A stretch of 64,000 nucleotides of DNA from Lingula anatina (Eukaryota; Animalia; Brachiopoda). Positions 10,520 through 64,000 of this stretch are shown here, piece after piece. The notes beneath the pieces are model-generated. The model ran no database searches and was not told the origin of the DNA. It saw nothing but the letters and a program-made list of their open reading frames with translations. The position numbers were made by a program, and so were the translations under genes. Where the stretch lies: positions 29,388,001 through 29,452,000 of the forward strand of contig CM120642.1 of the NCBI GenBank assembly GCA_051362555.1, written 5' to 3'. The first letter of the stretch is position 1. Each line of letters begins with the position of its first letter.

Positions 10520-10611
10520 CTTGTGTTAATTGTGTCCAGTATCTCAGGGGCTAGCGACACCCTTGTGCTGATCTGCTAAATAATGATACATGTAGATGTC
10601 GAGGAATATCC

Positions 10612-14028: not shown

Positions 14029-17000
14029 TCAGGCGCGAAGAAGAAGCTCATCTGACTTAATGGACGCAGCACCTATGTTTTTAGTGTCGTCTGCCGCGCT
14101 GTCTTCATTTTCCGCAGCGACTGTGTCTTTTGTGCTTATTTCATCCTCTTCAGAGACTTTGTACTTCTCTCCTGGGTTTTTCTGCTCCTCCTGCTGCTCG
14201 TCAAGTGGCCTCACCTTTCTTTGAAAATACACACTCTATTTTAATAATCGAAAATAACAATAGTATTATTAATATTCAAATAAATATCAAGACACAGACA
14301 ATGTGAAGTAAAACGAACACCCTTAAATTAATAATAATGTCAGGTATTTTAAAAAAGTTAATTATTTGATTAATAAGAGGCAATGTTAACATGAAAAGAG
14401 CATTCATCACCATTTAGCACTTTTAACTTTACATAAAATGTCTCAAATCAAAGTAATAGTTAAAAATATTCAAGGCACTCAACTAAATACCTTTTCCTTT
14501 TGTTACGCTTCCATAGAAAAAATATAAAACAACAGCAAGGTACGAACACTAGTAACCCAAGGATTCCGAGTAGTCCTATTACCGGTGGAGTAGAATCAGT
14601 AATACTAGTGCTTCCAGAAGGAATATTTGAATAAGCTCGATTGTTAGAAATTGCTGCAACAGTCAGATATTTAAAAAATCATCAAAAATATTCAACGATT
14701 CATTAGATATATAATAAAATATTGGTAAATATATAAGAACTGTTTATTGTGTCATCCTGACAACCAACGAAATCGGTAATAAAGGGTCGGAAATATTACC
14801 GGCAAATTTACATAAAGCGCCTCTTAACAATAATTACTGTTCCCCGTTTTACTGAATATTTCTTTGGTATTGTAAAGCGCACTTACCGACAAACTGTGTG
14901 AGTGTTAACATAATTTTATTTATCTAAAACTCGATATTCTTACCCATCTCATTCTCGCATCTCGTCCCATTGAAATCTTCCAAGCACGTGCAACTGAAGT
15001 TTCCCGCCAAATTTTCACAAGTTGCGTTGTTTTGACAAGGGCTATCGCCACATTCATCAATGTCTTCAATAGGTAAATGAATTGTATGATACAGATTTAT
15101 TTGTGGAATCTCAGTTATTAAAAAATTTAAAGTAATGTAAATCAAACGGTGCTTCTTTTAGTAGTAAAGAGCACAGTGTCTCGGTGGTTATAGATCGAAC
15201 TTGAACAAATTATCAAATTAATTTCCTAGCTCACTTAAAGAGAAATTAGAGGATGTATAATCTAAGTTCTTTATAACTTTTTTGGACAATGGAAGTCAGC
15301 AGCCACCTATAGCACTCTTATTTCACTGTGCATATATCTATTAAAACTTCCTAACAATCGGACGGTTTTTACACTATGATAGACATGCCATACAGAACTT
15401 CAAACCTCGACATTGTCCAACATGTACGTACCCGTTTCGCACATGTCTCCAATGAAACCAACTGGACATGTGCAGTTGAAACCGTTCAGCAAGTTGTTGC
15501 ACGTGCCACTATTTACGCATGGGTTACTGAGGCATTCATCTACGTCTGTAATAAATATAACAGTACGTGAGTAAACCTGCCACCACATTTCAAGTTATAT
15601 TGTTTGAATTCTAAATTAAAGGAATATGTGTGCAAATGCAAAACAAAAATACACAACCCCCCTGCAAAACTTGTTTGACGGCATGTAGAACCTTTGAATG
15701 CATAAATCAATCTGACTTTAAGAATTGACAGTGTACCTGTCTCGCAGTTGACTCCTGTAAAACCAATGAGGAATACCAGCCCGCTTGGCGCCAGGTGTCG
15801 CTAGTGTGAATTCAGTCCTTCTACAGTCGCCATGTTGGATATTATATACGTTGGACTGTGGTACTGGCCTTAATAAACATGCCTCAGTATTGTTGTGTAC
15901 CTGAATGTCAAAGTCGGCAAGGTGGGCATAATTTTCTTGAGGATTCAGGGCTTCGTTTGAAGTGAAGGGTTGCCCATGTCAAAACACCTTCCATGTTAAA
16001 GGGACAGTTACAACTTGACCCAGGCACAGTAATTAGGCCCCTAAAGATAGACGAGTTGCCTCAAAAAGAATACACGTAAAAAGGTTAATTGATCTTGGCA
16101 AAACTTATGATGTTTTGGAAAGAGAGCTCCATAGCAAGAAAGTGCCCCTAGGAAGTATGATTTATCAAAGTGCATTTTCTTATGTCCGTAATTTCAGAAG
16201 AGTTGTCAGTAAAAATATATAAGTGCCGGTAGCCTACTACCTGCATAAGGTTGTGTTATTAAGTAATATCCTTTTTTATTGGTGTATTGAGCATGACCGG
16301 TAATGTAAATTAAATAATTATTTTTATTTAAAATCATTATTCAGTACCTCGTAAGAATCATAAAACTAGGTATAATTAGATAATTTATTTGTTCATGTAT
16401 AGATGCAATTTCTCAGCCAATGGAATAATTAATGCATGTTTGGAAATCTTTTTGTAACAGTTTAAGAAATAAAATTTAAAGAAAGAAAACATTTTATAAA
16501 TGAACAGTTTTTGTTCTTTTTTTTTTTACAAAATAGCACTTCTCAATTGTTTTACTCGAGTAGAAACACCATATTATTTCATCGCTCTGAAAATTCATTA
16601 AAAAGCAGCAAAACCAAATATTTAAACAAAATAATAATTCAGTCCATAGTAAAAACCATGAAACCATGTAATACTTAGATAATTTATTTGTGCTATAACT
16701 TTCCTGAATATATAGCTGCAATTTTTCAGCCAATGGATTACTGTAGGTATGGAAAACTTTTTGTAACGGTTTAAGAAATAAAAATTAAAGAAAGCAAACA
16801 TTTTACAAATTAACACAGTTTTTTGTTCCTTTTTACAAAATAGTACTTATGAATTATTTTACTTGAATAGAACTACCACATTATGTCATCACTTTGAAAA
16901 TTCTTTAAAAAGCAGAAAAACCAAATTATTTGCTGTAAATACAACTAGCAATTTATTTCATCCCACTGAAATACTTTACAAAATTGCATCATAGTTTTTT

Positions 17001-20000
17001 TTTCATTACAGTTAAATATTATTAAAAACAGCATAAACACATAAGTACTTTTTGTAAAGAATATAGCACCACCAAATTATTTCATTTTAGTTAAAACATT
17101 TTTTAAAATTGCACTTCAAAATTATGATTGCAGCTAAAACCATCTCATACAGGGGTACTTTCTATAAACTAGTTGACACATACTTCCTATAGTGTTTTTC
17201 ATTAAAAAAAGTTATCCTGGGCAAAATACATGTAGAAAAATATCCAGCGTCAGAATGAATCAATCCCACAAACAGTTCTTTGAATGTAAACACAACAAAA
17301 TAGCAGAATGGGCGATTTGTAATGAACATCTGGCCTTCTAACTTAGTATAGTATTCGCGGGCTTTCTTTAGGCCCAGATTCGTGCACGAGATACACATTC
17401 CAAAAAGGGGAAATCGGGTCCGGGTCCAACTGTCATGTGTCTGCAATGGTTTTGGACACAACAATGATTCATACAGTTTGTTTATATACTTCTTCTCTGT
17501 AGCTGCAATTATCTCTCCAAACCTGGAAGCAGTGATCTGCCATTGTCTCTCCTTGTGTCAGATTGCGCTCTTTCCTTGTTATAACTTGCTATGCTCAGTG
17601 TCCTTCGCTGTTTGTTCCTCAACCTGAAATATTCATATCCCATTAAAGCATGGTAGATGGTTACAGCATTAAATAGTTAACATACAGTATTATATTTCTA
17701 TGATGTCACACATCACCTAGTTAGATAATTCTTTCTCATATTTGGGCCTGATTCTTAATATTAGACCTCTGTTTTCACTTACATCATTCCCTCTATCCAT
17801 GCATTATTGTTTTCATGGCACTTGGCAATAGTTGTTGTCCATCACAGCCGCCTGTAAGTCAGCTTTAGGGCAGGCATAACTGGTGGCTACATCATTCTTT
17901 GCCGCTGATGTGAAGTGACGGGTAAGATTCCTGAAGTAATCATTTTATCCTGCTCTTGAAGTTGGCTGTCCTGGGGGTCCTGAAATCGACAGTTTCAGGC
18001 TTTGCCCCCAATATATGGACCTTCTTTGGGTAACCTTATAAAGAAAATAAATAAGTACATGTACTAAGTATAAAAAATCTTCGTCTTTCGTGCTACTAAA
18101 ACAAAATATGAGCGTAGGCCTACTCGTACCTACAGTAGTCTACATGTACATAACATGTCAGATTTGACACACACACCTCGACTAATGTTCGATTTTTTTT
18201 CAAGGAAAATAGTTAGCATTCGTGTTTTTCAAGCACTAAATGAAAAGAAAACACATACCTTTCAGTCAATTCACAATTTCATCCAGATGTTATGGCACCA
18301 CATTCAAGTAAATTGCGTTTGAGTTGGTTCACTGTCAGCGACGCATGCACACGCTCCATGTTAAACTTTGGTGTAAAGCCGTGAGCGAGATTCTGCGAGA
18401 TTTAAGAAGGACTGCTTTCACCCCCACGCCATCTAGCGGCAGACCCTTAAAGCGGGTATTCCCCATTGGACAAGAGCAATAGTAGTATCCGGCTCGGTCC
18501 ATACACGTGCCCGCGTTCTCACAGGGATTGCTGGCACATTCATTGATGTCTGGAATGCGATTTGCAAAAGTTCACACATTGAAGTAAAAAGAATACGTGT
18601 GTAAATGCAAAACACACCGCCTGTAAAACTTGTTTGCTGGATTCTTTTAAGACGAAAATCAATTTGGTTCTGAAAGAAGTCATCGTACCTGTCTCACAGA
18701 TGTCTCCTATAAAACCAGTTGGACACGAACAGTTGTAGTGTCCGGGTTTGTCCATACACGTTCCCCCGTTTTCACAGGGATTGCTGGTACATTCATTGAT
18801 GTCTGGAATGTGATGCGCAAGGTTTTTCACAGATGGCAATTTGAGTAATAGATGTACCCATATTACACAATGATATTTGAAGTTAACTTCCTGTAAAAAT
18901 CTGCTTGATCAAAAGCACAACCTTTCAAGACGTACATGCATATATTTTTAAATCGGCAGTGTACCTATTTCGCAGTTGGTTCCATTAAAACCGGTTGGGC
19001 ACGAGCAATTGTAGTACCCAATTTTGTCCTCACAAGTTCCCCCATTCTGGCAGGGATTACTGTTACACTCGTTGATATCTGAAATGAAATCCACTAGCTA
19101 TCGTAACGGCAATCTTTCCATACGTTACCGTAAATAAAATATTTTTGAGAAATTTTTGTGAAATTTAATATCGGTAAAAAAAATCATGAACGCCGTATGT
19201 GGACATTTCAAAGTTCTTTTTCATAATGCATTGCTATGAAGATCTGAAATTGTACATTTTCTGTGTAATTTTCACAGCACAAAAACAAATCTTTCCGATT
19301 TTTCAGCCTCCGCGGAATGACGTCGGAACAGTGCAAGCTGGCCTTTACAACGCGCGACTGAATGACGTTTTTCCGCGCAGAGTACCCCTTTCTCTTTTAC
19401 ACCGCCTTTCAACAGGCGTAATCTCGTTCGTCTTTCTTCGCGACTGAACAACGTTTTTCCGCAGGGGTCTTGCCTTGGTATTATGTGACGGTCGTTATTG
19501 GATTGTGACTGATATTTAAGAACATGAGATTTCAATGGAACTAAAAGATTTATATTGTTAATTCCTTTCAAAATTCCATTTTATTATCTTAGGTGCGCTA
19601 CATATATATACTGTCGAAAGTCGTGATCATCCCGATCATAAGAATATCTCTCCTGAGGAAGCTTCCCCCGAGGGCTTATCATATTTTGTTATTCATCATT
19701 TCATTTCTCTTTGCTGATTTATCCCTAAAAGTTGTATTTGATCTATCAAATCCAGTCCAATTCACAGTCGTCTCAAAAACCATTTTAAATTAATACAGAT
19801 TGCTTAGAAGCGATATCAAAGTCTATATTTAAAGCATGATCATTATTTCCATAAGATTGCAATGAATTATAATGAATAAGACTTGGTCAAAGGCCATGCT
19901 GTTTGATTATTAAAAGTTTGGCCGCGGCCTTGGATATGCAACTCTGGTTGCAGCAACATAACTGACTACCATTTAACTTGTCGCTTGTACTATGGAAATT

Positions 20001-23000
20001 GTTAATCACACTTGCGTTTACAATCTGGATTTTATAGGATACGTTTTGTGTGTGTCTCCGGAGTAAGAATCATTTCACTGAAATCATGATACACAGTCAG
20101 TGCATTTTTAATTTTTTATTTTTTCAATTAATAAGGTGTATTAATAAAGATTCCTTAGTCGATCGCGATTTAGACTGCGGCAGTTTAAATAGATCTTAAG
20201 TTTATTACACCGATGGACGTAGTGCTTATGCATTGAATCAGCGTGTGTAGTGGTGCAACCAATATTTAATTAATAAGGGAGTTGGAAGAACCAGCGGGTG
20301 ACCGTTAAACGTTCTAATATTTAATCAACACTGAGCGGAGAACAAACAAAAAAGTAATAAAGATGTTTCACTCTATGCGCTGGTGGCCGGGAAATTTCAA
20401 CAAAGCCCGACTAACAACAATGTACGTCACGGTCACCTTCATTATTTCATCTAGCTAAAAGACGAAAACAAAAATACTTTAATACCAATGTTGACTGGAG
20501 ATGCATTAGAATTTTTTTTGATGAATAAGTATTGCCCCACAACTGATCGTAGTACATCCCACGATAAGATTTCGCTCGATAGACCATGTCTAGAACCATA
20601 AGTAAACCATTAGTTCTAAACTAGCTGTCATAAAAAACCTTGCTTGAAAAACTGAATAACTTTAAGACCATTGTTATTTTGCAAGGTTAAGCAGCGATAA
20701 ATGTGTTGATATATAGCAAACATTATCAGTATGATGTGCCGTAACACGTATATAACAGGAGTACTTTTCTATTGATGATGATATCTTGCTCATAGTGGGT
20801 GACGAAGATCTAGAGAAGGGGGTGGTTAAACCACGTACAGTGAAGAATCACTGCACATTAAACGGTTTCTGCTAATGAAAATGTATCATATCGCAATATA
20901 CTGATTTCTTCAAAGAAATTCATTTTCACATGAAAATAAGTAAATCGCCGCAAGTCAAAAACGGCTATTTTGTTTATAAGTTCTGGGCTTTGACAGAGAA
21001 GGACAGGCCTGCTTTAGATGACAGCCGGATTCGGTTGTATTTGTATGGGGATTGCTACCAGTAAGTAACACAGTTTTCACATGAAGTACCATTGAAACAC
21101 GATGGTCAAGAGATGACTCATAAGCTGAGGTCAGTATAACAAGCAGCATGGTGGCCAATAAGCTATTTAATCTATCATGTAGCCTCTCTCCAACCGCGGT
21201 GATGAAGGCTTAAACCAAATGTTTTGGTTTCTCACTTCTTTGTTTAAGCACATTTCCCCCCCCCCCTCTTTTTTCAGGACTCTACAGCTGATGAAGGTCA
21301 CTTGTTGACCGAAAAGCGCTTTCTGCAACCAGTCCAACCCCCCTTTTTTTTCATTTCCCCACCCGCACTGTGTGTATCTCGTACAGTCGGCCCTTCAGGT
21401 CAAATAAATACAGAGGCGAGAGACCTCTCTCACATCATACTGAAGTGAAACAACAGCCGATAATATTGAATACGGCAATAAATAGTTATCTAACATAATT
21501 CGAATCAGAATTATAAGACGGACACGTTCTATCACCGTTTTCATCTCTTCACAAACACGTGATTACGCATCTTAGGGACTTCAATCTAAACTCTAACGTC
21601 CCAAAAACAATCTCAAAGCTTTTAACCAGGGGCGCTGTCAAAACACACGTCCCCAGGGGCCCAGTCCTGGATCGTGTTATTTTGATAAGAGTTAGTTTAA
21701 CTAAGACATGAGCCGACCACCCCTAAACAACGAATATTAAATCGCAACTGCAAAGGGGAGGATGTGGTGTGGTGTGAAGATAGCCACAGAGACAGAGTAC
21801 AAAGTATATGTACAGGAAAAACGAGAGGATGAAGACAGTAAGTGGTTTTATTCCTTTTGTTATTTTCATAATATTCATTTATTTTTATTTTTAATAATTG
21901 ATTATCAATGTGTTGATAAATTACCAAGTCTTTGATTTTATTACATTCTCCATGTCTGTTGTAATGGTAGGCTACATGCATTCTTGTAATTCTCAATCCT
22001 GATACTTTCTCTGAATTTTTTTAGTCAGACATGCTGTTCCCTTTACCCAGTTATGTTTAATACGTTATTACACATTATATTTTGATATCATTTCGTTATA
22101 TCTTCACAGAAACCGCACTGGAAAAAGGAAAGGGCGATGGCAGCACTGAACAAGGGGAAGTCGTTGAAAGGGGCAATGGCAGAAATATCTGACGCGGGGG
22201 TGTGCCAGGCTAAAGAAGTGCTCAAATTGATGTGTGGAAAATAAATTACACGCAAGGGCGATTTGATGTGTGGAAAATAATTTACACGCAAGGACGATTA
22301 GAGTCCAAAGTTGTAGATTAGATAATATAACAGTATTCAACATGAAAAATATTAATATATCTCCTTTACGGTGATTGATTTTTACTTACTGTTTTTATAT
22401 ATATTGTTATTACAACGAGATCAGTACTTCTTATATTTGAACATATATTTGTATATTTATTTTGCTGTGATCCCAAGTAAACTGATATGTTTAAATTCAG
22501 GCCCAGTCTTGAAAGTCCCCTCCTCTTGGGGAGGGGAATGACCACAGTACGCGGGAAGCTAAATCATCAATACACAAATTACAGTGTATTATTATCTCAC
22601 TGATAGTAGGCTTTTTAAAAATATCCTGAAAATCACGTATCACCGGGTATAATGTCTTCGTTTCACGAAGGGCTGAGAATAAACAATTGCATTCACAAGT
22701 CGCGTGAATGGGGTGCTTCACGAATCACGCTAAATAAGATGAACGTTTCACACACCTCAAGAAATAAATAGCTGTATTTTCTACAGATTTATTCTGAAAG
22801 TAAATTTTTCTGTTAGAATTTGAGCAGCATTTATTTGATTTTGATTAAATGCTTTAAGTTAGTCGGATATTTCAGGTACATAATGTGTTGCGTTTCTCTT
22901 ATTATTAATTTTCCCGTATTTTTAATGTTATTTTATTTCTTTAGCCTACGCATTTTGTAGGGGTTTTGGTGACAATATTACATCTTTCCTTGGAAGCTAG

Positions 23001-26000
23001 GCTTCATCGCCTTACTCAATGTGAACAAAAATACCTAATGAGTGTAATTTTTAAAACGGAGTCGGGCAATTAGGGCACACATAATTGGCATGTTATTTAA
23101 CGAGCGGCCACTCTCTGCAAATACATTAAGTCGATGGATAAGTAGTAGTCGTTTCCGTTTTCATCATATGTTTACCAGATGTCGATAAATAATGGAAAAA
23201 GCCTGACTATTTATGAATCTGTAACTCTCTATAATTGTACTTTTGCTTAGATTTTGTTCTGGAAAGTCGTTTTTAAATGTGGTTCGTATTTATTTGCGTA
23301 ATTATTTTACTAGGTAAATTTAAAATTATTTTTAATGGTATTCGCTATTGTTTAGGGTGTGCGTATAATGAGTGTACAAAATAGTAGATTAGTATAAGAT
23401 TACTTTCCACTTGTGAAATATAGTAGCTATGTTGCGCTTTATAAACATAATTCCCACTGCATTGTAATGGTTATTGTTGTTTTTTTGCAATAAATTATTA
23501 TAAATGAAAACTCACAAGCCTTCCTCTCATTAAATGAAATGCTGCATTAATTTGAAACATTATCGGTGCTATAAGTAATTGAAATAACTATAAACGTCCA
23601 TATTTGATTAGATAAGGGAAGTAGAGACTTACCTAAAATTGCCTTTATTTGATCGTAAAAGGGTTATAATGACGTACCTCATATCGCATTTACTTCATCG
23701 GAAAAGGGTTATAAAGACGTGTCAAAAATGGCCTATATTTGATCGGAAAGGAGAAGTAAAAAGGTTGTTTTTAGTCGCCTATACTTGATCGGAAAGACGT
23801 AGTAAAAGTGCAACTACAATTTTAAGCTTAGGCATAAAAGGGTAGTAAACCCGTAGACCCTGACCTTTCCGGTAGAGCTTTACACCGTTGAAAAGGCTTG
23901 TAAAGAGAATATTCAGATCCATTTCCTGAAGAGTAAAAGAGCTGAAAATTGACTTTTTGTGCTGTGTTTATCAATAACTTGTGCTTTATTCTGCAAACCC
24001 TTCGTCATCTAAATATGTTAGCAATTAAATTGGTTACTTGTCTAACTGTGTCTGTCCTACCTGTCTAACCAGTCTACGTTGAACTTAAAATCCTGTCTGA
24101 GTTATGCTTATGTATGCTTAAGTTAACCTTGGCCGCAGTCACAATTGATTAAAAGACACTTCTCTTAAAAATGGGACAATTGGTGCGCCTACCAAGAAAC
24201 ATATAATGTTTTTATCATTTGCGGAATATCCATATTTCCACGCAATGTTACTATTCATCACATTACTAATAGTCTAAAGCTACGGCTATGAGGAGAATTC
24301 CCGATTGGAACTAGCCACTGAACTTGTATTCACTTGAAAACCACACTACAATTAAGCTTACCTGTTTCACAGTGGGTTCCATTAAAACCGATTGGGCACA
24401 AGCAATCGTAGTATCCAGTTTTGTCCACACACGTTCCCCGATTCTGGCAGGGGTTGCTGATACACTCTTTGATGTCTGTAATGAAAAGCAACAAATGGTA
24501 CAATTGGTGCGCCTACCAAGTAACATATTATGTATTAACCAACTGCAGGTTATCCATATTTCTTCGCACTGTTGCTATTCTTCACATTAATGATGGTTTA
24601 AAGCCACGGCCATCAGAGGAGGATTCCCGGTTGCAAGTAGCCACTGAACTTGTATTCACTCTACAACATACTACATTCAGCTTACCTGTTTCACAGTGGG
24701 TTCCATTAAAACCGATTGGGCACAAGCAATCGTAGTATTCAGTTTTGTCCACACACGTTCCCCCATTCTGACAGGGGTTGCTGATGCACTCGTTGATATC
24801 TGTAATGAAAAGCAACAAAATTAGCAATTAAATGACCTACACGGTAACCACAAAAGCTACATTAGAGAAACTTCTGTAAAAAATCACAAAGGCATCATTT
24901 CAAAGTTACTTTCTAAATTGCATTACTCTGAAGCTGTGAAATTGTACACCTTTATATTATTTACCCAGTAAATGTACAAACCTCTTTTGACATCTGAAGA
25001 TGCTGGCAATTATTGGTAACATGCATGATGATGTGTTTTTTCCTGTCTAACTACATGTAGTCTATGTTGAATTTAAAATCGTGTCTGAGCGCAGTTTTGG
25101 TGACGTTTACCTGTTTCACAATTGTCTCCTGTAAATCCAGTTGGACACGAACAATTGTAGTGCCCGGCTGTGTTTATACACGTTCCACCATTCTGACATG
25201 GGCTGATTAAACATTCGTTAACGTCTGGAATGTGGTTAGGTTTGTATATTTGAACAGGACTGAGTGAAGTTTTATTCAATTTACTTTTTTTAATTTCTCA
25301 AAATATGTCATACCAAAAGGCACAGCAGCAACAGTAGTTAACAGAAATTAATTCTTAGATAATTGGTGCGAGTACTGAGTTACATTTTAGGTATTTACCT
25401 TTTGCAGATGGTTTGTTTTAACACTGAATTAAAACTGAGGATGACTAACACATAAAGAAACTTATAGTGAATGCAGGAAAACGATATTTCAAGTACATTA
25501 TGTCACTATTCATCAAAACCGGAAAGGGACGTTGCGAATTCGGTCATTAGAAGAAAATTCCCGATTGGAACTAGCCACCGAACTTGTATTCGCTTGACAA
25601 CCACACTACAATTAAGCTTACCTGTTTCACAGTGGGTTCCATTAAAACCGATTGGACACAAGCAATCGTAGTATCCCGTTTTGTCCACACACGTTCCCCC
25701 ATTCTGGCAGGGACTGCTGATACACTCGTTGATGTCTGAAATAAAGCAATCAAATTAGAATTTTTAATGACTTACACCGTGACCACAATAACTACATTTC
25801 AGACATTATGATTAGCTACATTAAAATGTCTGTTTAAATCATTATAACGTCGTAAATAGACATTTCAAAGTTACTATTAAAACTGCATTACGACGAAGCT
25901 GTGAAATTCTACATCTTTAGGAAAGTTACCCTTAGTCTGAGCGCAGTTTTGCTTACGTTTACCTGTTTCACAGTTGTCTCCTGTAAATCCAGTTGGACAA

Positions 26001-32000: not shown

Positions 32001-33223
32001 CCACTTGATCCCAATATGGCTATCAATCTTCTGGACATAGACTGATAACGGTGATCTTCTGGGGGCTACCTTGGACAGGTCCTTTAGAAATTTTGGATTA
32101 GAGAGTTTCTGGTAAAAGGGCAATCCGTTGCCACTTGACTTCAGATCTCATTGCACAGGCTTTCAATGAGGTGTGCGTCTGGTGATTGGGCAAGCCAGTC
32201 CACCCTCTCGATGTCATACTGGTAAAGCCACTCTTGTACAGCCCTGACCTTATGGGGTGTGACGTTATCACCTTGGAGAGTGAATTGATGATTCTTATCC
32301 CAAAATATGGTTAAAGTGCTGGTCCAAAATGCCTAAGTAAAGGTAATGGTTCAGGCTTTCATACCATGCGTCAATCCCTGTTCACCTATTCAGTAGAAAC
32401 CAATGCACCCCTAAACCATTATTGAAGTGAACTGTCTGGCAGATAAGCAGTGGATGATGTTCCCCATACACTTACTTGTCCACTCACTTTTGATAAAAGT
32501 GAATATGGTCTCATCAGAAAATGAAAATGGCGTTAGTTCTTACCTTCCCTGCATGCAATGGTTCATGTCATTTTTCTTTGTTAAACTACCAAGGCGCTAA
32601 ACGGTTTTCTCCTGGCAACCCCACTGTGAATTCCTGCAGCATGAAGCTTTATTTGAACAGTTATTTTGCTAAGCCCAACCTGTAAATTACGCTGCCACTC
32701 CAAACGTACATGTAATTCGGTGCACGGCTCAAATCTCCTACGCCATGACAGCATAAGAAGACACCTGTTGTCTCTGGAACTAATCTTCTTCGGGTGACCA
32801 CTTCGTGGTGACTTATGCGCATCACTAGTGACGTCTATCCTTCTAGCAAACCCTATATACCGTCTGACCAGACACACAATATTTATTTGGGGGACAATAA
32901 TACCCCTCTTAGAAAAATTCAGTTATTGATATCAAAAGCCGGTAAACTACCCCCTACACACATACACACACACGTGTACGATTAAGTCTCATTCTTGCCA
33001 TAAAGTTTTGTTGTTTTTTTATTGTTTGGGTCGAAATTGAATATTTTATTGATGTAAAGAATTCAAGTGTCTTACCTTGTTGTATTCAGTAAGGGACGGC
33101 TTCCAACTTATTGTTGATCCACAAAAGTGGCTTCCTTAAAATATTATGTTTAACAGTAAATTCTTCCGTAAATGAAAATTGAGGCTAATATGTCATCAGA
33201 AATATTTATTTTGTGACGGATTC

Positions 33224-33265
<42 letters not shown>

Positions 33266-42100: not shown

Positions 42101-42347
42101 AGTCTGATAAGGCCTAGGGCCTATACGTCCAGTTTGACCGTAAATTAACGATATGAAAGTTTTTCGGCTTGTTTGATAATTTTCATATTTACTATAAGAA
42201 CCTTTTTATACCATACTGTTTTCACTCATTTCATGTACTTGTAACTTTTAAAACAACAATGAACACTGCATTTTAAATATTTATATATGTTCATTTCAAC
42301 TGTTGGACATATTTTATATAACTTTATTTTAACACTTTTTGTATATT

Positions 42348-42407
<60 letters not shown>

Positions 42408-52512: not shown

Positions 52513-53032
52513 CATATGTAATGTTATTGTAACAATTAAAAAACTTAAGTCTTAGATCATCATAATCATACACAGACAGCAGAGTGCTACAATGTATGTC
52601 ATATCTCGTTCAAAAAGCGTGGCTTGTGCGACAAAATACGTTTGAGAGTTCCGGTCCCAAAAGCTATACATTGTAGTTCATCAATGCGATGAGGCAGAAA
52701 AAATTTGTCATTTCCCTTTTACGAGATACAACTTAATGTATATACCGACTTTTCAATCTCATGATAAAGAGGGAAATACTGTTGTACATGTACAGGGATT
52801 TTTGAAATTTGTCTCTTTGAGATTACATTTGCACAGTATCTAACGTAATATCAAATTAATGTTTTTACACATCTTGTTTAAAGGTGGTAGGAATCAAAAA
52901 CGGAAAAATTTGCACGTTCTTTCCCTTTCATGTTTGAACATGAGTAACAAGTTCACAATTGTAAGAATCAAATATTGTAATTGTCGCATAACAGCTTCAT
53001 AAAGTTATTTTGCCACTTGATCTAGTTCCTTA

Positions 53033-54907
53033 TCACCAGGAATACAGGTTATTATGTGCACGATATTTGAGCGCTTCTTCGGCTTTATTTGGCTTGGGTT
53101 TGGGTTTGACTGGTAGAACGCGGCTAAAATAAGATATCAAATTAGTTATATTAAATCACAATTTTCTTGCAATGAATCAAAAGTTAAATATATTTTTTTC
53201 TACATGTACTCGGGCAGATCTTAAAGTAACAGTTCAGTAAAAGGTAAATTGTAAACAAAAAATAATTATTACCATGAACATTTTTACCTCTTCTTAGATC
53301 TGTTATAACTACTGTACATACAGTATTATGATAATAATAAAAACAACACAAGCAGCAGGAAAACACGTCATACTCACTTCTTTTTCTTTTGTTTCTTTCT
53401 TAGGACATATATAAGCGGCGGCACTGGGCACAGACCTAGTAGACCAAGTAATCCCAGCATTCCAAAGGGAAAACTTCGGGAAACGTACTGGTAAACTATT
53501 GTAAACGGTCTCTCCCGCACTCCTGTAGAGATTGAATCTACCGTTGTGACAGGAGTTCTCACGGTGTTGTTGGAGCTAGTAAATGCGGTAGAGGTACTCA
53601 ATATTGTACGGACACTACTCGGCGTTGTCTTTGCACGTGTCGTCGCTCCTGTCGTTGTGCGACTCGATGTCCTCTTTGTGGCTGTTGTTGTAAGCGTTGT
53701 TTTTGCTTTTGTTGGCGATGTTGTGGCTGGCGTAATTGTTGTTGTAGTTATTCTGGTTAAAGTTGTTGATAGCAATGGTGAAGTTGGCTTAGTAGTAGTA
53801 ACCGTTGTTGCTTTGGCTAGAGTTGTTGATGGCGTTGTTGAAGTTGCAGTAGCTGTTGCTGTTTTGGTTATAGTTGTTGATGGTGATGTTGTCATTGTTG
53901 TTGAAACTGTTGTGGTAGTTGGTACTGTCGTAGAGGTAAATATTGCTAAAATCACAAAAGTAAATTTAAAATCACTGAATGCTGTAAAATATATCAAAAC
54001 CATCCACAGACTTATCATTAAAAGAAGGTTTAACTTTCAAAATAGAAGTTATTACTAATTCATTCTTGAAAGAAACAAAATGGAAATAGACCTAACAGAG
54101 AAGATGCTAAGAACTGGTTAATTTGTTTTACCCGTCTGACAGTTGGTTCCTTTGTATCCCGGAGGACAGGCACAGATGTACTTGTTATAAAGATTGTTAC
54201 AACTGCCGCCGTTTTTACACGGACTGCTAGAACATTCATCAGCGTCTACAAGCAAAGTTTCCAGATAATAATGAATACATTTTATTCAAAAGTTTTTCGT
54301 TACAATTTGGTAATCCACAAACAAAAGAGAAAAACACTACTCTTTGCGTAAGAAAAAAATAAAGGCATTCACGATATTTAAATATGTATAATAATAATAA
54401 GGATAATTTGTAAGACTATTTGTTTACAATATCTAAGCATTTCCTTACCGTTGGCTTGCAGCTTTATACACACTGACTCACTGGGGCGTCTGAAACACAT
54501 GGTCCCTACCATTATTACATGTATTTTTCCGTTCACCCAAACAAAACTTTATTTCATTTATTCAGCCAGAGGAACAAGGTATGATAATGAGGAATTTTCA
54601 AATTGAACTACATCTGTAAATGACAAGTTTTCTAAAATGGAAAACGCTGTCTGGTGCTTGCTTTGTAATAATATTCTTTAACATGTGCTTTGTTTCAAAC
54701 AGATGTCCGCTATCGTATGAAATAACATCACCTACTGAGAAATATCAACAGCTTCACAACAGAGAATATTCACACTCGTCTGCGAGCTTTGTGGCGTCCA
54801 TGTTATGTTCATGTATTTTACTCCTGGTCGTCCATTATCATCTGCTGCAAGTGTGCCTTTAACCATTCCTGCCGGAGCAACCAGGTTGACAGCCGTTACT
54901 CTAAACA

Positions 54908-54986
<79 letters not shown>

Positions 54987-55014
54987 AATAATAATAATAA
55001 TACTACTACTACTA

Positions 55015-55049
<35 letters not shown>

Positions 55050-57892
55050 AAAATAAACGTCTAGTAACACTCAATGAACAAAATTAAGATATTTGAGTCA
55101 GAATTTGTCAAGTTCCTAGATTAACGAATAGTTTTAACTATTAAAATGTAAATTGTAAAATAAAGACTATTGCGCCAAAGAAGACATGCATAGTCAAAAC
55201 ATTAGGCTTCCTATTTACGTAAGTGTTAAATAAGAACAAGAGGGTATTACGTCTTTTAAAATTTAAGCAACACTTCGACAATTTACTATCATTAGTAGGG
55301 AGTTTATCGCAAGGTATTTGACAACAGACAATCAAACATCAAATGAAGTTACAATGTATCCCATCGAGACGTGCAGTTGTAATGATCCCAACTTACGGAG
55401 AGATTGTGTCCCCCGCCTTGACGTAGACCTTCCCGTAGAAGGTCCCACCAGGTGGAATGGCCACCGTGGTATTTGTCGGGGCACCACACTGCAGGACCTC
55501 TGGCGGTGACGTACTGTTACCAAAATCAGGTGTGGTAAGGAGGAACTAGAAGAAGTAGAATTTGGATTCACATTATTTTTTTTGGTTACATTTCTCAGCA
55601 CCTACTGCACATGGTTTATGGGAATAATTAGATCGGTGTCTGTCGCGTGGTTGGGGTTTGGGGGAACGAATATTATTGAACCATCCACGTCGCGTCGTCC
55701 TTAATGCCCGTTGTGGTCGGTCATTCTGGGTAAACCCACTTATACATAATTAATTAAGCTTGACTTATTTTCACACTAACAGCCAAGAATATGCAAAGTA
55801 GGCCTTCTTAAGGACAATAGTCGATATCAGTCATACCGTAATGGGATCATTTTACCTGCAACGGTATTGAACTCAGCGCGTCTTGGGTAGTTTTCACCAC
55901 GCCACCTTGTGTGATATTCTGAAGGGGAAAATCTTCAATGGTGAGGGCCACAGCGTACCAGCCGTTGACGACATAGCCATTGTTATTGGAGATCTTGGGA
56001 ATCTCCAGTGTACAGGTGGTCTAGAAGGAAAATTGGGCACAAAAATATATAAGTATAAATAATGAAATAAATATAACAAAATATTTCAACTGGCCCAATA
56101 TTGAGTGTCAACCCAGTGGTAATCTATGGATCTCTTGTACAAATGTGCGTGCAACTGAAATAAAAATTAATGATTGGAATACAAAGGATATGGCGACTTA
56201 TTTAATAAAATACATACGGTATGAACAAAAGTATCCACATTAATTCTGAGATACTGAACTGCTAAGCAAAAGAATTGACCACGTTCCACATACCGGTAGT
56301 TTGTCATGTAATTGTTGAAAAATGAAAGGTAAACTAAAATGCTTGGCAAAGGAAAATGTCAAAACGGGTATGTTTAACTAAATCGTTACTTAACCTCATC
56401 CAAAGTGGCGTTTGGCAGTATATTGCAGACGCTGGCACACTCGTCTGTTCCTTTGGCCCACCGACACCTCGCCCGGTCACCATCCGGATCAGTGGCAAGA
56501 AGCCTCAGGCGGAATTTGCTTCCGAAATCGGCCCTTAGTTAAAACAATTGGCAAGAATATATAATATTGTGTAGATTATAGGCAAATATGAGATTGCCAT
56601 AAGATGAAATAATTTCAGATTTTTAACATTTCACTTTTATTAAAACCATTACAGATGTTCATAATGAGCTTCAATCCGTACTCTCTTTGAGGCTCGTTTA
56701 TACTTTTTGTAGATCCGTAATCCTCGAACGTACGCCGTTTATAATAGTTGAAACACCGGCGTTGGAAGTGCCTTATTTAGCAGGTTGGGTGTAGGAATGT
56801 TATCCTTGGTGCTCTGAGGCTAAGAGGGAACATGTGTCCCCAGCTAGGGTACAGTCAACATACCACAGCTGAGTTTCGATCATCAATGGATATACTAATA
56901 TTTGATATTTTTCTTTCTTTTTTGCACAGGCTGTTTCAAATTGTGAGCCAAATTGAAATCTCGGATGAGATATGCATAAATGGCATACAAAACCCTGAAA
57001 GTTACGAGAAAACGGTTGTACCAACCTGTATATGCCTTTGCTGACAATAACAGGACTACTGTTGGGTAATTTTGTGTCACTTCTGTTACCCAAATTGACG
57101 ACTGTTTGCAACCTCCACTTGTTACCTGTGCCGTAACTCAGTGTACGCCATGAACTACCCGTAAATCTGGAATAGGCAAGACCTAGGAGACGTTAAGAGT
57201 CTTTATCAAAAAGTTAATGAATCATTAACTAAGTCATGTTATTAAGTGTTGTCTTTATGTTGGCATATTTTCAATATTTTCCATTTTGGATTTGCTTTTA
57301 AAGTCCCTCGAGGAAAGGCATGCTAATATGTCAGTTTTCAATGCCCTCCGAAATTCAGGGTGAATTCTGGCCTGGAAGGTAATTACTTTTTAAAGATCCC
57401 ACCACTCACCCAACAACATATTTTCCCTGGTCCTTAAAGGTGTACAAAAACCTATTTTCTCCTTGCTCCCAATCTTCTTTCTGATTAACCTCCGTCAGGA
57501 TGTAATTGTGAGGTGCAACCGTAGTTGGACTGCTACCACACCCATCTAGACACTGCCAACTCCCGCTGGGTACCGTGCCATTACGACCTATGTTGGCGGC
57601 GCTGCAAGACGAGCCACACGGTCCTCTGCCAAATGTCCATGTTGATTGCCACTGGAAGTCTACCTGTTACGTAATTACATTTATAAATTACCGTTTTCTT
57701 CAACAAAGAGAAAGGGTTTTTCAGTAAGTTACGAGATCCTTATTCTACTAGAGAAAATCAGAGACACGTTAGTACGTTTTTCGTTTTTATTTTCATTTAT
57801 TTTTCATTTGGAATATTCTAATCAGCTACTTCTACCGCTCGTATACATTATTTTCTGTCATTGAAAAATTAAATAAATAAATAATTAGACTA

Positions 57893-57941
<49 letters not shown>

Positions 57942-58304
57942 TCACCGTGGTGATGTCTGTGGGGGAGGTTTTCCAACTAATGGTGGATCCACAGAAGTGG
58001 GCCCCTAGGTTTGATTTAAAACGTTTTTTTTTTTTTGTCAGCAAAGGTGAATAATTTGGTTAAAATAAATCATGATCAAAAGCAAAGAAATGAAACTACA
58101 TGTACATCATCAAAATCTGCATTAAGTATGAAGTAAAATATTTTAGCATTATCACTGAAGAGGTGAACTAATCGTTAGTGCTATTCACATAATGAAAACT
58201 TCACATCCTGCCGGTGGCAACTCACCTTGCGTTAAATCGACTAGGATGAGGATGATAAAGGTCTTAATCACAAGAGAAGAGGTTGCGTCCCAGCGCATCT
58301 GCAT
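53033..58304 (-). CDS. Paralogue C: Sib/integrin-beta-like module + 1 EGF + Thr-rich mucin stalk + TM + short basic tail (~654 aa)
   Basis: Exons 58226-58304 (signal), 57946-58004 ([11 protein letters not shown]), 57410-57663, 57026-57166, 56395-56533, 55856-56020, 55397-55545, 54736-54900, 54449-54489, EGF 54132-54245, mucin+TM 53378-53945 ([25 protein letters not shown]), tail 53033-53123 ([29 protein letters not shown]). Confidence 0.85.
54908..55048. repeat. Compound self-complementary (AAT)n/(ATT)n microsatellite
   Basis: Alternating AAT, ATT, AAT, ACT and ATT tracts directly beside the splice acceptor at 54901-54902. Confidence 0.95.
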
Positions 58305-59846: not shown

Positions 59847-62800
59847 TCAATCATTGAGAGCTAGCTCAACTTCTTCCCTGCCTGTCTCTTGTGCGGAATT
59901 TTGATGTGCCTTATATGAATTGAACGGTGCAGGTTTCCGACGTCTGAAAAAAGTATATATCGTATAACGGATCTAAACTTCTTCGTGGAGTATGTCTATC
60001 AGTTTAATATAGTGGCACTGCCATGTAAACCTATTCTTAGGATTATCAAAATGGGCACATACATTCTTTTTTTTTCATTCCGTATACATTTTAATACTCC
60101 ACTTCCAGTAAGCAGCTTTCCAGAGGGCATGAATATCGCTAAATCATAAGACCAATGGTAATTAACGAATAACAAATTCAATTGAAGTGAATTTGCTTTT
60201 TATCACAAGACAAAGATTTCCAAAACGTACCCGCGTTTCCCACTCACAATGCACCAAATACAAGCTGGAACAAGTAAAAGTAACAGTAAGCTCAGCCAGC
60301 TTAGTTCCTTATCTGATGAGAGCGTGGGTTTGCCGGTCTCGTTGTACACTGAAAACGAACGTTATAAACAAATCATTCTACATGTAGGACGCGTATTGAA
60401 ATATACATGCACTGTTATAATAAGTAAAATAATAATTATAGTGCATTCTTTCGTTGTGCTGAAACGACCCTGAACCACAATTCTTGAATTATTCACATGC
60501 TTTGGCACTAGAAATGAAACAATTTGTACAATGTTCAATAGTTAGGTTTATGGCCATTTATCAATGACATTTCGCGCGCTAACTTTTAAGTATTGTTTGC
60601 TAGTTTCTTAATCTAAAAAATTGAGTATCTATCCAGCTTACATATATCAGAATTTTTTGTCTGTGTTCTGTGATACGTGGAATTCTTGTCTGCCGATGGT
60701 CTGATGTCTGTAATATTCTTCACACACGGTGATGTACCACACCATTCTAATTGTTAGAAAACATAACCACTTATTATTGTCATAGGGGGAAATTTGTAAA
60801 GATATGTAAAAAAAAAGGGTGAGCAAAATGGCTGGTCGCATCTCTGCGTTCACCATAAGTTTTGCCCTAGTATTTTTACTGTACTGCAAACCATTTAAAG
60901 TGTAGAAAGAAGTCACATGTCAAATCACCTAAATATTAGACTGAGGGCACCTATAGGCAAATTAATAAAAAAAAGTTTTACTGAAGGAAGAATACTCTAG
61001 CATACATCGAATCATACATTTCGTAATCCATTTTGTATTCGTGGACGGATTAATTGAAGGTACAGGACAGGACCAAGATTTACTCTCGGAAGGTAGTTTT
61101 GAAAGCTATCGTGAAGGCGACCAGAGATGGCATACCTATCTCGCAGTTGACGCCGGTAAAGCCCACCAAACACGTGCAGGTATACCCGAGGTACATATTG
61201 CTGCACTTACCACCATTCCAACATGGGTTGCTGGAACATTCGTCAATATCTGAAAACAAGGTTGAACTTTATTTATCTATTCCTCTTTAAGCCGCAGTAA
61301 ATTTTAAAAATAAGCAGACGCACTGGTAGTCAGCACCTCGAAAATATGAAAAGGAGTTGTATTGAAAGCCTATCTGTTGAAGAAGGTAAAAATACATGAA
61401 TCAAAACGTTGAGATTTAGAACATTGGCATAACGTATTCTGAAGGACAGATTTTAAGGTACTCGTTGCTAGGGAACTAGGGGCATCTGTAAAACTCTTAC
61501 CATTTGCTCGCAACTTGATGCATTCATATTGACTGGGCATCCTATAAAAGGAACTTTCTGACATTGAACCAAGTTTAAACATTATTTAAACCCAAGTTCA
61601 ACTTTTTAGTGACATGATCATATCATTATTTAATACTACAATATCATTACTGAGAATCCGTAGAAAATCCGTTAACGGTATTTTTTTAGTCAAATATAAA
61701 TAAACATCCTAGTGACCATACTTAGTACATACGTTCTCTCGTCTACGGCCTCACAACACAGTACGCTCTCTCCGACTTGGCCGGACCTGGCGTCCATTCT
61801 ATATCGACGTACTTGGAACCCGGTATCCCAGTGCTGTCGTCCCGAAGAACGCTTTTCCTCGTTCCGGCAGGAGACACGACGTGTATGGCATTTATTCTGA
61901 AACAACTCATTTATAAATATGCACGTTTACATTCAAGTTTTTTTAGACAGACTTTTTGGTATGCGACTTTACAGGTCGTCTGATTTGTGAGCTAAGTGTG
62001 GTACTTCTGATCTTTCACCAACTGCTATTTAACCAAATGGACACGGTGCTCTAGAAACGTTGGAAAACGCAAAGAATACAACTGTCGTCTATTGTGATCT
62101 AATTTAAATCAGATAGCCCGGAGTAAAAGTGTCGAGATCGGTCTACTCAACTCTCGTGTGCAAGCGCCTTTTGATACTGCTGAAATGTACATTTTTTTTT
62201 CCACTGACCGACTTAAAATACTTGTTGATCTAACAGGCCAAAACACTACGTCTATTCGTTTATCTGGCCAATAGTAGGCGCTTCTCAACCTTCGAACATT
62301 GACTGATTCGGTGAAAATTAATAAGCTATCGAACTACCCTTTGTTTTCTTCATCCGAAAATTTAATACACAATACTATCTACAGTTGTACACTGAACATA
62401 TTCAATACCAGCTGCTATCAATGAATATTGGTGTATGTATTCTTACGGTGCTGCTGCCTGTCCTGGTATGGCATGTACACGACCTCTGAAGGTGCCCCCT
62501 GGCGGTATAGGCACAGTGGCGCCGTCTGTAGTTTGTCCACACTGGGTTATCCTGGGTGGGGTGGCACCGTATGCAATGGGCGGTGTTTGGATTAGAAACT
62601 GAAATAAAAAAGGTTATGTGAAATATGTCAACACTGTACATGTACGTTTAAATTGCATAAATTGTGATACACATGTAGAACCCTTTCTGATGATGGTCTA
62701 ATTTTTCATCAAAAATATAAGGAAAACTGAAAATTCCAATTTCAACTACTGGACAATCTAACGTATTTAAATAATGTAACGTATCTAACGTGGACAATCT

Positions 62801-64000
62801 AATTAAGATTCTCAGGATTATGTGCAAGGTGCATTGAAAACGCATCAACCACTTCCGTCCCCGTACCTGTAGGGGAACAGCGCTAAGTGGGTCGTTAACT
62901 GTTTTGATCGTCCCACCTTGGGTGATGTTACGCCGAGGAAAATCTTCCACGGTTAAGGCAACCGCGTACCAGCCAAACTCGTAGTATCTCAGACGACGAA
63001 TGACCTGTGGTATAGTTAGGATACAGCGCTCCTATGGAAAATAGACGTTTTTTATTTGCAGTTTGCACATAAAAGATTTCTTATAAAAAGATTACTAAAA
63101 GATAGAATCAAAATTAAAAAGATTTAAAAGTATATAAATGTAATGGAAGGCGTCCTTAAAAGGTGAAATATTCGGCCAAAAACAATGTGATAAGCCTGAA
63201 GAAACTTAAAAGCACCTCGTCCAGTCTAGCGTTAGGAAGAAGACGACAAACGCTGGCACATTCATCTGCTCCCTCGGCCCATCTGCATCTCACGTGATCG
63301 CCATCTGGGTCTGCTACTCCCAGTTTCAGGACAAATCTGCCCCCGTAATTAGCTCTGAAAAAATGGTTGGTTTCTTGATTAATAATATAGATAAACAGGA
63401 ATGGAAACAATAAAACTCCACTACGACCAAAAGCCATACACTTGTGCTTGATACAAGCATTCCATTGTTTAACCGTCTACGTCACATAATAATGCCCACA
63501 TCATCCTATTGCCTAAAAGGGGTTGATTTAGGACCTGAAATCTCGCAATAATTTAACCCCCTTACCTATATATACCTTTGCTTGCAATAACCGGGCTGTT
63601 GTTTGGGCGCCGTGTGTCACTGCGGGTGCCCAAGATAACCTCAGTCTGTATCCGCCAGATGTCATTACCTCCACCATATGATAAACTCCGCCAGTTACCG
63701 CCTGTGAAACTGTGACATTGTGTTAGAGAAGATATGTGCTGTTATGCTGATCGTCTTATCTAATACAATATGTTTAGTTTTGTCATGCTATTGACAATTT
63801 GAGACCCAGAATGTAAAAGGTGATACGATGTAATCCTTTATCACGTTTATAACGTTCAACATAGTACATGCAGAAAAACCCATATACATACCCTATAATG
63901 TAATTTCCCTGAGCAGGAAAAGTATAGCTAAAACTATTGGCCCCTTGTTCCCATCCCTCACTTTCACTGACATCCGTTACAATATACGAGTCTGGCACTA
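59847..64000 (-). CDS. Paralogue D (5' part outside window): Sib/integrin-beta-like module + 1 EGF + short stalk + TM + tail; apparent 1-bp frameshift
   Basis: Exons 63892-64000 (partial), 63566-63709, 63216-63354, 62867-63031, 62447-62598, 61733-61896 (164 bp vs 165 in C), 61501-61541, EGF 61136-61249, TM 60231-60348 ([22 protein letters not shown]), tail 59847-59943 ([31 protein letters not shown]). Confidence 0.78.

What the first reader, a model, noticed from the sequence alone, without database searches (positions are those of the whole stretch)
14029..64000. Tandem array of Sib/integrin-beta-like receptors with one shared head and four different stalks and tails
Seen: four same-strand paralogues share a colinear N-terminal module (nearly identical exon lengths, ~59/251/141/139/165/149/206 bp, and the same phases). 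It is followed by 12 EGFs (A), 2 EGFs (B), 1 EGF plus a ~150-aa Thr-rich mucin (C), or 1 EGF plus ~15 aa (D), then a TM and one of three tail types. Knowledge: the HFxGxTISW, PNNSPV, DPDGDxxRCRWA, YAVALxxEDF and PLQF motifs resemble Dictyostelium Sib adhesion/phagocytosis receptors and poorly characterised invertebrate 'integrin beta-like' proteins. Inference: a modular recognition or adhesion receptor family that presents the same head at different heights above the membrane and couples it to different intracellular outputs.
Basis: partly seen in the sequence, partly recalled or inferred. Interest (0 to 1): 0.85.

Follow-up and report, generated by a model that had tools for sequence, protein, structure and literature searches.

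The report
Lamp-shell receptors with amoeba-adhesin heads
Four neighbouring genes of a lamp-shell-like animal encode single-pass membrane proteins whose shared outer part is a distant relative of the front end of an amoeba adhesion protein, set on stalks of different length; they likely act as surface adhesion or recognition receptors, are not integrins, and belong to a large animal family that seems not to have been studied.

Summary
The array is real. Four minus-strand paralogues (A-D) share a ~370-aa head, followed by EGF or mucin stalks, one TM and three tail types.

- A has 11 intact EGF exons; a twelfth is split by a 2.7-kb insertion with inverted ends.
- B keeps a relic EGF half-exon.
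- The 206-nt exon is 165+41 in C and 164+41 in D.
- D has a 1-nt frameshift and is cut by the window edge.

RNA reads splice at the modelled A/B boundaries, including head to EGF. C and D were barely covered.

The closest relative is a Lingula anatina protein (82%). The head is predicted as three beta-sandwiches. It is homologous, through bacterial and animal intermediates, to Sib domains 1-3 (Pfam PF24907, PF24908, PF24910). The VWA domain and NPxY motifs that define Sib are absent.

The head is a large mobile module: 491 clusters at E<=1e-30, from sponge to lamprey and in bacteria, on ZP, SRCR, mucin and 7TM proteins. 'One head, many stalks' is therefore family-wide. Specific to this cluster: a conserved Arg has become Cys and a conserved Cys is lost. 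The ligand is untested. The scan had not reported this family before.

The parts
33301..33361 (-). Gene A signal-peptide exon
27906..33134 (-). Gene A head exons: 33134-33076, 31493-31243, 30294-30154, 29706-29568, 29089-28925, 28666-28518, 28111-27906
   Evidence: RNA joints 30294|31243, 28666|28925, 28111|28518
14944..27582 (-). Gene A EGF stalk: 11 intact phase 1-1 exons (ten of 114 nt, one of 120 nt); 10 of 11 fit the calcium-binding consensus
   Evidence: RNA joint 26636|27469
15768..18464 (.). 2697-nt insertion with imperfect inverted ends and a 2-nt flanking duplication, splitting gene A EGF exon 10 (5' part from 18549)
14029..14653 (-). Gene A TM exon 14653-14491 and tail exon 14218-14029; acidic tail ending in a DXXLL motif two residues from the C-terminus
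38231..43597 (-). Gene B signal exon 43597-43537 and head exons 43044-42986, 41245-40995, 40595-40455, 40049-39911, 39442-39278, 39042-38894, 38436-38231
37265..37768 (-). Gene B two EGF exons (37768-37655, 37378-37265); EGF1 is 94% identical to A EGF1
   Evidence: head-to-EGF joint 37768|27906
36987..37019 (-). Relic 3' half of a third EGF exon in gene B, without acceptor or GT donor
   Evidence: 90% over 30 nt to the end of A EGF3
36190..36777 (-). Gene B TM exon 36777-36630 and tail exon 36379-36190 (tail exon 95% identical to A)
   Evidence: RNA joint with net 250-nt skip
54449..58304 (-). Gene C signal exon (58304 or 58298 to 58226) and head exons 58004-57946, 57663-57410, 57166-57026, 56533-56395, 56020-55856, 55545-55397, 54900-54736, 54489-54449
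53033..54245 (-). Gene C single EGF exon 54245-54132, Thr-rich mucin plus TM exon 53945-53378, tail exon from 53123 (has NxxY, no NPxY)
61501..64000 (-). Gene D head exons, cut by the window edge: to 63892, 63709-63566, 63354-63216, 63031-62867, 62598-62447, 61896-61733 (1 nt short, frameshift near 61779), 61541-61501
59847..61249 (-). Gene D single EGF exon 61249-61136, TM exon 60348-60231, tail exon 59943-59847

Best explanation
These are four brachiopod-lineage duplicates of a single-pass membrane protein that likely works as an adhesion or recognition receptor: a predicted three-domain head likely binds a partner outside the cell, and the EGF or mucin segment likely acts only as a spacer.

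Shown: gene anatomy; a signal exon in A-C and one TM in all four; splicing of A/B-type transcripts; purifying selection on the A/B head; a lineage-specific clade ((A,B),(C,D)); distant homology of the head to Sib domains 1-3.

Inferred: the outermost domain D1 (Fn3/Ig-like) carries the binding site. D2 (cadherin-like, with near-invariant Asp residues) is a calcium-stiffened linker. Stalk length changes quickly because EGF exons are phase 1-1 units that can be duplicated, deleted or skipped without breaking the frame, and each subclade ended up with one tall and one short form. The A/B tail likely routes the receptor through endosome or Golgi sorting (C-terminal DXXLL, acidic cluster) instead of gripping actin through talin. 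The most likely ligand class is a surface or mucus/matrix polymer, because in relatives the same head caps ZP, VWD, SRCR and mucin proteins.
For: Models. RNA joints at the exact modelled boundaries in 2-3 of 4 runs, and a stranded run fitting minus-strand RNA. A/B head dN/dS 0.36, with D2 at 0.20 and D1 and D3 at about 0.44. Tree with the window genes plus P0001 as one clade (100/100), A/B/P0001 99/98 and C/D 100/93.

AlphaFold2 of the Lineus homologue's head gave pLDDT 93 and pTM 0.90. D2 matches cadherin repeats (Z 9.0, rmsd 2.8, 100 aligned) and D3 matches bacterial adhesin Ig/Siglec-like domains (Z 9.7, rmsd 2.0, 87 aligned). D1 matches Fn3-type sandwiches (best Z 7.7, rmsd 3.3, 88 aligned). 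The three Asp of the DxDxD motif are 97-100% conserved and the following Asp is 100% conserved among fetched homologues.

The head lies N-terminal to ZP (12 of 63 scanned), SRCR, CUB, VWD, NIDO, TSP1, sushi, C-type lectin, mucin and 7TM modules. SibA is an adhesion and particle-binding receptor (passages of PMC9197732, PMC5758549). DXXLL is a GGA sorting signal (passages of PMC1891007).
Against: No ligand, localisation or tissue data. The folds are generic beta-sandwiches, and a Z under 8 for D1 shows only a common arrangement. Structures were predicted for Lineus and Mercenaria homologues, not for the window's proteins. The window's own exons and P0001 do not hit the Sib Pfam models directly. 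No EGF-to-TM joint was among the 15 joints shown (15 more hidden). Many reads were under 95% alike, so A, B and unseen paralogues cannot be told apart. C and D had depth under 2 and no listed joints in 4 of 4 runs. The DXXLL end is missing from the Lingula anatina relative P0001, and A and B tails are recent copies, so it is a single observation. 94 of 164 homologues show no TM after residue 300 (many are fragments), so the head also works without a membrane anchor.
Confidence: 0.55

Rival explanations
1. Birth-and-death turnover without specialisation. One or two copies (A, B) do the job, stalk differences are by-products of exon slippage, and D (perhaps C) is decaying.
For: D frameshift; insertion in A EGF10 and relic exon in B; A EGF2/4/6/7/8 are 86-95% identical to each other, which indicates recent internal duplication; P0001 has 10 EGFs in a different pattern; C and D were barely covered by RNA.
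Against: Synonymous sites are saturated between subclades (pS about 0.8) while nonsynonymous difference is 0.25-0.29, so C and D were conserved for a long time. All other D exons and splice sites are intact. Tall and short forms arose in both subclades by different means.
Confidence: 0.2
2. Cell-to-cell adhesion in the cadherin or Ig-CAM manner: heads on facing cells bind each other, and tall/short pairs set the membrane gap.
For: Cadherin-like D2 with conserved Asp residues; an odd number of Cys in D1 of A-C could allow covalent dimers.
Against: The same head caps ZP, VWD and 7TM proteins and bacterial secreted proteins, which fits binding to a foreign ligand better. The tails show no resemblance to catenin-binding tails that I could recognise (from recall; not searched).
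Confidence: 0.12
3. A juxtacrine signalling ligand or a shed matrix protein, like Notch ligands or fibropellins, in which the glycosylated EGF array is the working part.
For: 10 of 11 A EGFs carry the O-fucose consensus and 8 of 11 the O-glucose consensus; sources name relatives jagged-like or fibropellin-like.
Against: No DSL domain was found in the Pfam scan of P0001. EGF number ranges from 1 to 11 while the head is constant. The source names reflect EGF similarity only.
Confidence: 0.08
4. True functional Sib/integrin-beta equivalents that bind talin and drive phagocytosis.
For: Head homology to Sib domains 1-3; C tail has an NxxY; 2 of 66 homologues with 1-2 TMs have NPxY and 1 has NPxF.
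Against: No NPxY in any of the four tails, no VWA, no GxxxG. The proximal NPxY is essential for talin binding by SibA (passage of PMC9197732).
Confidence: 0.05

Closest known systems
Dictyostelium Sib proteins SibA-E (Pfam SIBA-E_N PF24907, Ig_SIBA-E_2nd PF24908, Ig_SIBA-E_3rd PF24910)
   Same: Type I membrane protein whose first three extracellular domains are homologous to this head, by transitive profile matches.
   Different: Sib has a VWA domain, a glycine-rich GxxxG TM and two NPxY motifs that bind talin (passages of PMC9197732, PMC12686525, bioRxiv 2020.04.29.069435). These genes have EGF or mucin stalks and none of those motifs. No Sib protein itself appeared in my hit lists.
Invertebrate proteins auto-named 'integrin beta-like protein A/C/D', 'fibropellin-like' or 'jagged-like' (P0002 scallop, P0003 Lineus, P0007 oyster, P0172 mussel, P0001 Lingula anatina)
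   Same: Same head+EGF(+mucin)+TM architecture; the window genes fall in this 20-row clade (100/99); stalks of 1-11 EGFs.
   Different: Window genes have Cys where 158 of 173 homologues have Arg and none has Cys, lack a Cys that is 91% conserved, and have an extra Cys nearby. None of these relatives has been characterised in the papers I found.
Bacterial secreted proteins with a SIBA-E_N head (P0224 and P0226 with a type IX secretion tail; P0225, P0228)
   Same: Match the head profile over 99% of its length at E 1e-11 to 1e-17; same His-x-Arg-Gly start.
   Different: 22-26% identity to the alignment's first sequence; lack the D1 cysteines; followed by PKD, HYR or cadherin-like repeats; no TM-tail design.
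Variable-stalk receptor families such as selectins, CD45 isoforms, CD97/EMR EGF-TM7 and DMBT1/uromodulin ZP proteins (recalled analogy, not tested)
   Same: A binding module at the tip of an exon-modular spacer.
   Different: Unrelated head domain; analogy only.

Membership tests
Sib (SibA-E) | N-terminal SIBA-E domains 1-3, by homology through relatives | tested here: met
   PF24907 in 9 of 20 alignment members, best E 1.4e-7; above the curated cutoff in P0021, P0074, P0083, P0118, P0189; P0225 carries domains 1, 2, 3 in order and matches the head profile at 8.6e-16 over 99%; Atlas structure rows named SIBA-E_N.
Sib (SibA-E) | Direct match of the window's own head to the Sib Pfam models | tested here: inconclusive
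   No SIBA hit for P0001 at E<=1 or for 5 single window exons at E<=0.1. Only single exons of the window were scanned, not spliced heads.
Sib (SibA-E) | Extracellular VWA domain | tested here: not met
   No VWA in the Pfam scan of P0001; in models A-D the head runs straight into EGF, then spacer and TM.
Sib (SibA-E) | Two cytoplasmic NPxY motifs | tested here: not met
   0 NPxY in 4 of 4 tails and in P0001; one NxxY in C.
Sib (SibA-E) | Glycine-rich TM with GxxxG | tested here: not met
   No GxxxG in 4 of 4; A-C have Gly every third residue at the TM start, D has none.
Sib (SibA-E) | Talin binding; adhesion or phagocytosis phenotype | not testable with these tools
   Needs a pull-down and expression in cells.
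Integrin beta subunits | PSI, beta-I (MIDAS) domain, integrin-type EGF stalk, NPxY tail | tested here: not met
   No integrin family in the Pfam scan of P0001; EGFs are ordinary six-Cys calcium-binding type; no NPxY.
Cadherin superfamily | Tandem extracellular cadherin repeats | tested here: inconclusive
   One domain (D2) resembles cadherin repeats at Z 8-9 with 9-16% identity; no Pfam cadherin hit for P0001; only one such domain.
Notch DSL ligands | DSL domain before the EGF array | tested here: not met
   No DSL hit; the head precedes the EGFs directly.

The most novel reading that the evidence does not exclude
The Sib head is an ancient, overlooked recognition module shared by Bacteroidota secreted proteins, the amoeba phagocytic receptor and animals from sponges to lampreys and bony fish. 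Animals have mounted it on EGF stalks, mucins, ZP filaments and adhesion GPCRs, and it, not the VWA domain, may be what Sib uses to bind surfaces. In this brachiopod lineage the near-invariant Arg has been replaced by Cys and the D1 disulfides rewired, leaving an odd Cys and probably a new specificity or a covalent dimer. Tall and short versions then evolved twice, once with EGFs and once with a mucin.
Probability: 0.25. Interest if true: 0.72.

Novelty: new variant of a known kind. Interest (0 to 1): 0.42.

Why it matters
The cluster itself is an ordinary kind of tandem receptor array. What it exposes is a large, mis-named protein module with no solved structure in my searches and no functional paper that I could find. 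It links an amoeba adhesion receptor to hundreds of animal surface and mucus proteins. One preprint states that Sib proteins were not seen outside dictyostelids (passage, bioRxiv 2020.04.29.069435); that holds for the whole architecture but not for this head. The compact Lingula forms (B, D: head plus 1-2 EGFs plus TM) and the natural tall/short pairs make the head's ligand, and the value of stalk length, directly testable. Database labels such as 'integrin beta-like' on these proteins should not be read as integrin function.

Tried and rejected
- No whole genome is held, so copies beyond 64000, D's 5' end and synteny were not examined.
- Sequence search of the PDB with the head profile: 2 hits, both E>=0.2, rejected.
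- Foldseek of the whole head gave only generic Ig chains with TM about 0.2. Foldseek of D1 gave no match at E<=0.001; VIA best Z was 7.7. This does not show a new fold.
- NCBIfam: nothing better than E 0.096.
- The scan of prokaryotic genomes with the alignment could not run because no stretch was conserved enough. Bacterial evidence rests.
- No RNA holder was listed in the index. Eight of nine same-label raw runs were laid, each read to 6-30%.
- A first candidate signal exon for C at 58624 was rejected (in-frame stop) in favour of the exon ending at 58226.
- My first comparison of the B relic exon was out of register and was redone.
- dN/dS between subclades is saturated and unusable. No sign of positive selection between A and B.
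- Only 63 of the 140 new representative hits were Pfam-scanned.
- Literature searches found no study of the animal family; only two DEG table rows named 'Integrin beta-like protein A' turned up. The original Sib paper was not obtained. Supplements were not read and could hold Lingula expression data for these genes.
- Earlier scan findings: nothing by sequence or place and one unrelated note.
Full report
OBSERVATION. The window is intron-rich animal DNA; no whole genome is held. Six-frame translation and motif scans place four colinear copies of a head cassette and 16 EGF starts on the minus strand only, with none in 30 shuffles. Splice-site modelling gave A (33361-14029, 927 aa), B (43597-36190, 578 aa), C (about 58304-53033, about 650 aa) and D (cut at 64000, ending at 59847). 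C and D split the last head exon into 165+41 and 164+41 and differ by 3 nt in one or two other exons.

DAMAGE AND REMNANTS. A has 11 intact EGF exons. The tenth of twelve is broken by a 2697-nt insertion with inverted ends and a 2-nt flanking duplication; its longest open frame is 131 codons and has no Pfam hit. B retains a relic EGF half-exon, so its short stalk is at least partly the result of loss. D's 164-nt exon is one base short and shifts the frame; read with X at the break, the rest is open to the stop. Heads are 83% identical for A/B and 56-61% for the other pairs.

EXPRESSION. No indexed RNA holder was listed; nine same-label raw runs were offered. On 24001-44000 (four runs, 6-26% of each read) joints fell on the modelled boundaries: head exons 30294|31243 (7 reads, 2 runs), 28666|28925 (5 reads) and 28111|28518 (10 reads); EGF1-EGF2 26636|27469 (6 reads); and last head exon to first EGF, 27906|37768 (13 reads, 2 runs), the two sides landing on different paralogues because the reads are diverged. 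The TM-to-tail joint (16 reads, 2 runs) has a net skip of 250 nt, the modelled intron length, and its intervening letters match gene A. In run X6, depth over the exon bins of 24001-31337 and 36007-41342 came only from first mates on the plus strand, as expected for a minus-strand RNA. No EGF-to-TM joint is among the 15 shown (15 hidden). On 44001-64000 (four other runs) C and D had depth under 2 and no listed joints (15 shown, 125 hidden, dominated by a repeat).

RELATIVES. One head exon found one protein among 20 candidates: P0001 from Lingula anatina, 845 aa. Its head is 82% identical to A, with 10 EGFs and a related TM and tail. The window is therefore from a lingulid brachiopod or a close relative (inference). 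The head found 24 proteins among 2545 candidates and, as a profile, 86 among 6533 longer candidates. The full profile search gave 3820 clusters at E<=1e-3, 1859 at 1e-10 and 491 at 1e-30, of which only the best 150 are visible. Named hits include a sponge, corals and Nematostella, rotifers, molluscs, a nemertean, echinoderms, amphioxus, a tunicate, lampreys and a teleost.

ARCHITECTURES. The head is nearly always N-terminal and is followed by EGF, ZP (12 of 63 scanned), SRCR, CUB, VWD, NIDO, TSP1, sushi, C-type lectin, mucin or GAIN-7TM modules. Among 30 EGF-stalk proteins measured, including the four window models (31 tried, 1 without a full head), EGF number runs from 1 to 11. Mussel P0172 has head + 1 EGF + Thr mucin + TM like C, though it lies in another branch. 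A 42-row tree puts A-D and P0001 in one clade (100/100), split into A/B/P0001 (99/98) and C/D (100/93), which agrees with the extra intron; that clade sits within a 20-row lophotrochozoan group (100/99) (hand-picked rows, midpoint root).

THE HEAD. AlphaFold2 of the Lineus homologue gave a confident all-beta model (pLDDT 93, pTM 0.90). Residues 137-256 align with cadherin repeats (Z 9.0, rmsd 2.8, 100 aligned) and 260-370 with Ig-like adhesin domains (Z 9.7, rmsd 2.0, 87 aligned), all at low identity and essentially tied with many other folds. D1 folded alone from a Mercenaria homologue (pLDDT 87.5) resembles Fn3/Ig sandwiches, best Z 7.7. PF24907 SIBA-E_N matched 9 of 20 alignment members and PF24910 matched 2. 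Four of five bacterial proteins that match the head profile end to end pass the PF24907 cutoff, two pass PF24908, and P0225 shows all three Sib domains in order. The Atlas structure search of D1 returned SIBA-E_N rows and Bacteroidota type IX secretion cargo. The window's single exons and P0001 do not hit these models directly, so the link is transitive. D2 is the most conserved domain within the cluster (65-91%) and has near-invariant Asp residues, which I read as calcium sites (inference).

A LINEAGE-SPECIFIC CHANGE. At profile column 4, 158 of 173 aligned homologues have Arg and none has Cys, but A, B and C all have Cys. At column 74, 91% of 215 have Cys, while A-D and P0001 have Val or Leu. 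A-C and P0001 also have an extra Cys just before the conserved Cys at column 37. D1 of A-C thus has five Cys. Which pairs form is not shown. In D2 a Cys pair is kept in A and B and jointly lost in C and D.

NOT SIB, NOT INTEGRIN. Sib is described as having a VWA domain, a glycine-rich TM and two NPxY motifs that bind talin (passages of PMC9197732; PMC12686525; PMC5758549; bioRxiv 2020.04.29.069435). None of A-D has VWA, NPxY or GxxxG. A and B share an acidic tail (95% identical DNA) ending in DXXLL plus two residues, the form of signal that GGA adaptors bind (passages of PMC1891007); P0001 lacks it. C has a basic, proline-rich tail with one NxxY. D has a short tail with no motif that I recognised.

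MECHANISM. The most likely reading (0.55) is a surface adhesion or recognition receptor with the binding site in the head and a passive, exon-modular spacer. With recalled dimensions (about 3 nm per EGF, about 0.25 nm per mucin residue), A and C would stand some 30-40 nm tall and B and D under 10 nm, so each subclade has one tall and one short member. With two cases this could be chance. A's EGFs show recent internal duplication (86-95% identity among EGF2/4/6/7/8), and the insertion and relic show loss in progress, so neutral turnover is the main rival (0.2). Homophilic adhesion (0.12), EGF-driven signalling (0.08) and talin-coupled Sib function (0.05) are weaker. [quoted passage not shown] I did not verify that either gene carries this head.

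NOVELTY. The domains are in Pfam and the architecture recurs in molluscs, so this is a new variant of a known kind. Eight paper searches (listings only, apart from the passages cited) found no study of the animal family, and the main text of the Lingula genome paper has no mention of integrin (passages of PMC4595640). Subscription papers and supplements were not seen. Interest 0.42: the local array is ordinary, while the wide, unstudied head module and its altered form here are worth a follow-up.

Noticed in passing
window 9905-10525 (-): bHLH gene exon (Pfam HLH, E 4e-18); it looks like Hand to me (name recalled). It lies about 3.5 kb downstream of gene A.
   Followed up: partly
window 46476-48037 (+): NNMT/PNMT/TEMT-family methyltransferase gene between B and C on the opposite strand; spliced GT-AG joints 46661>47079 and 47290>47599 in 2 of 4 runs.
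   Followed up: yes
window 48930-52512: Repeat element holding a 146-bp unit in 15.8 copies (49950-52262), covered by RNA reads hundreds deep with loose ends at both borders; a short motif recurs near both ends in the same orientation. Probably a dispersed, transcribed repeat.
   Followed up: partly
window 31950-32920 (-): Decayed Tc1/mariner-like transposase remnant in the first head intron of gene A (weak Pfam HTH_Tnp_Tc3_2 hit, E 0.002, below cutoff).
   Followed up: partly
window 15768-18464: Non-autonomous-looking element with imperfect inverted ends, an internal ~300-bp duplication (16330-16623 / 16628-16931) and a 2-nt flanking duplication; family not assigned.
   Followed up: partly
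window 24169-24819: 324-bp tandem duplication carrying A EGF6 and EGF7: a recent stalk extension by one exon-intron unit.
   Followed up: yes
proteins P0022-P0024, P0107 (Mytilus): The same head fused to HRM-GAIN-7TM, an adhesion GPCR architecture; P0022 is sister to the head-EGF-TM protein P0016 (100/100), and their records list the same longest-contig length.
   Followed up: partly
proteins P0090 (lamprey) and P0045 (teleost): The head also occurs in vertebrates: on a VWD-C8-TIL-ZP protein named IgGFc-binding protein-like in lampreys, and in several copies in a fish protein.
   Followed up: partly
family-wide: The conserved His lies about one residue after a likely signal-peptide cleavage site (median position 22; Ser or Thr before it in 82 of 99), from bacteria to animals. 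A role for the free N-terminus is possible but untested.
   Followed up: no
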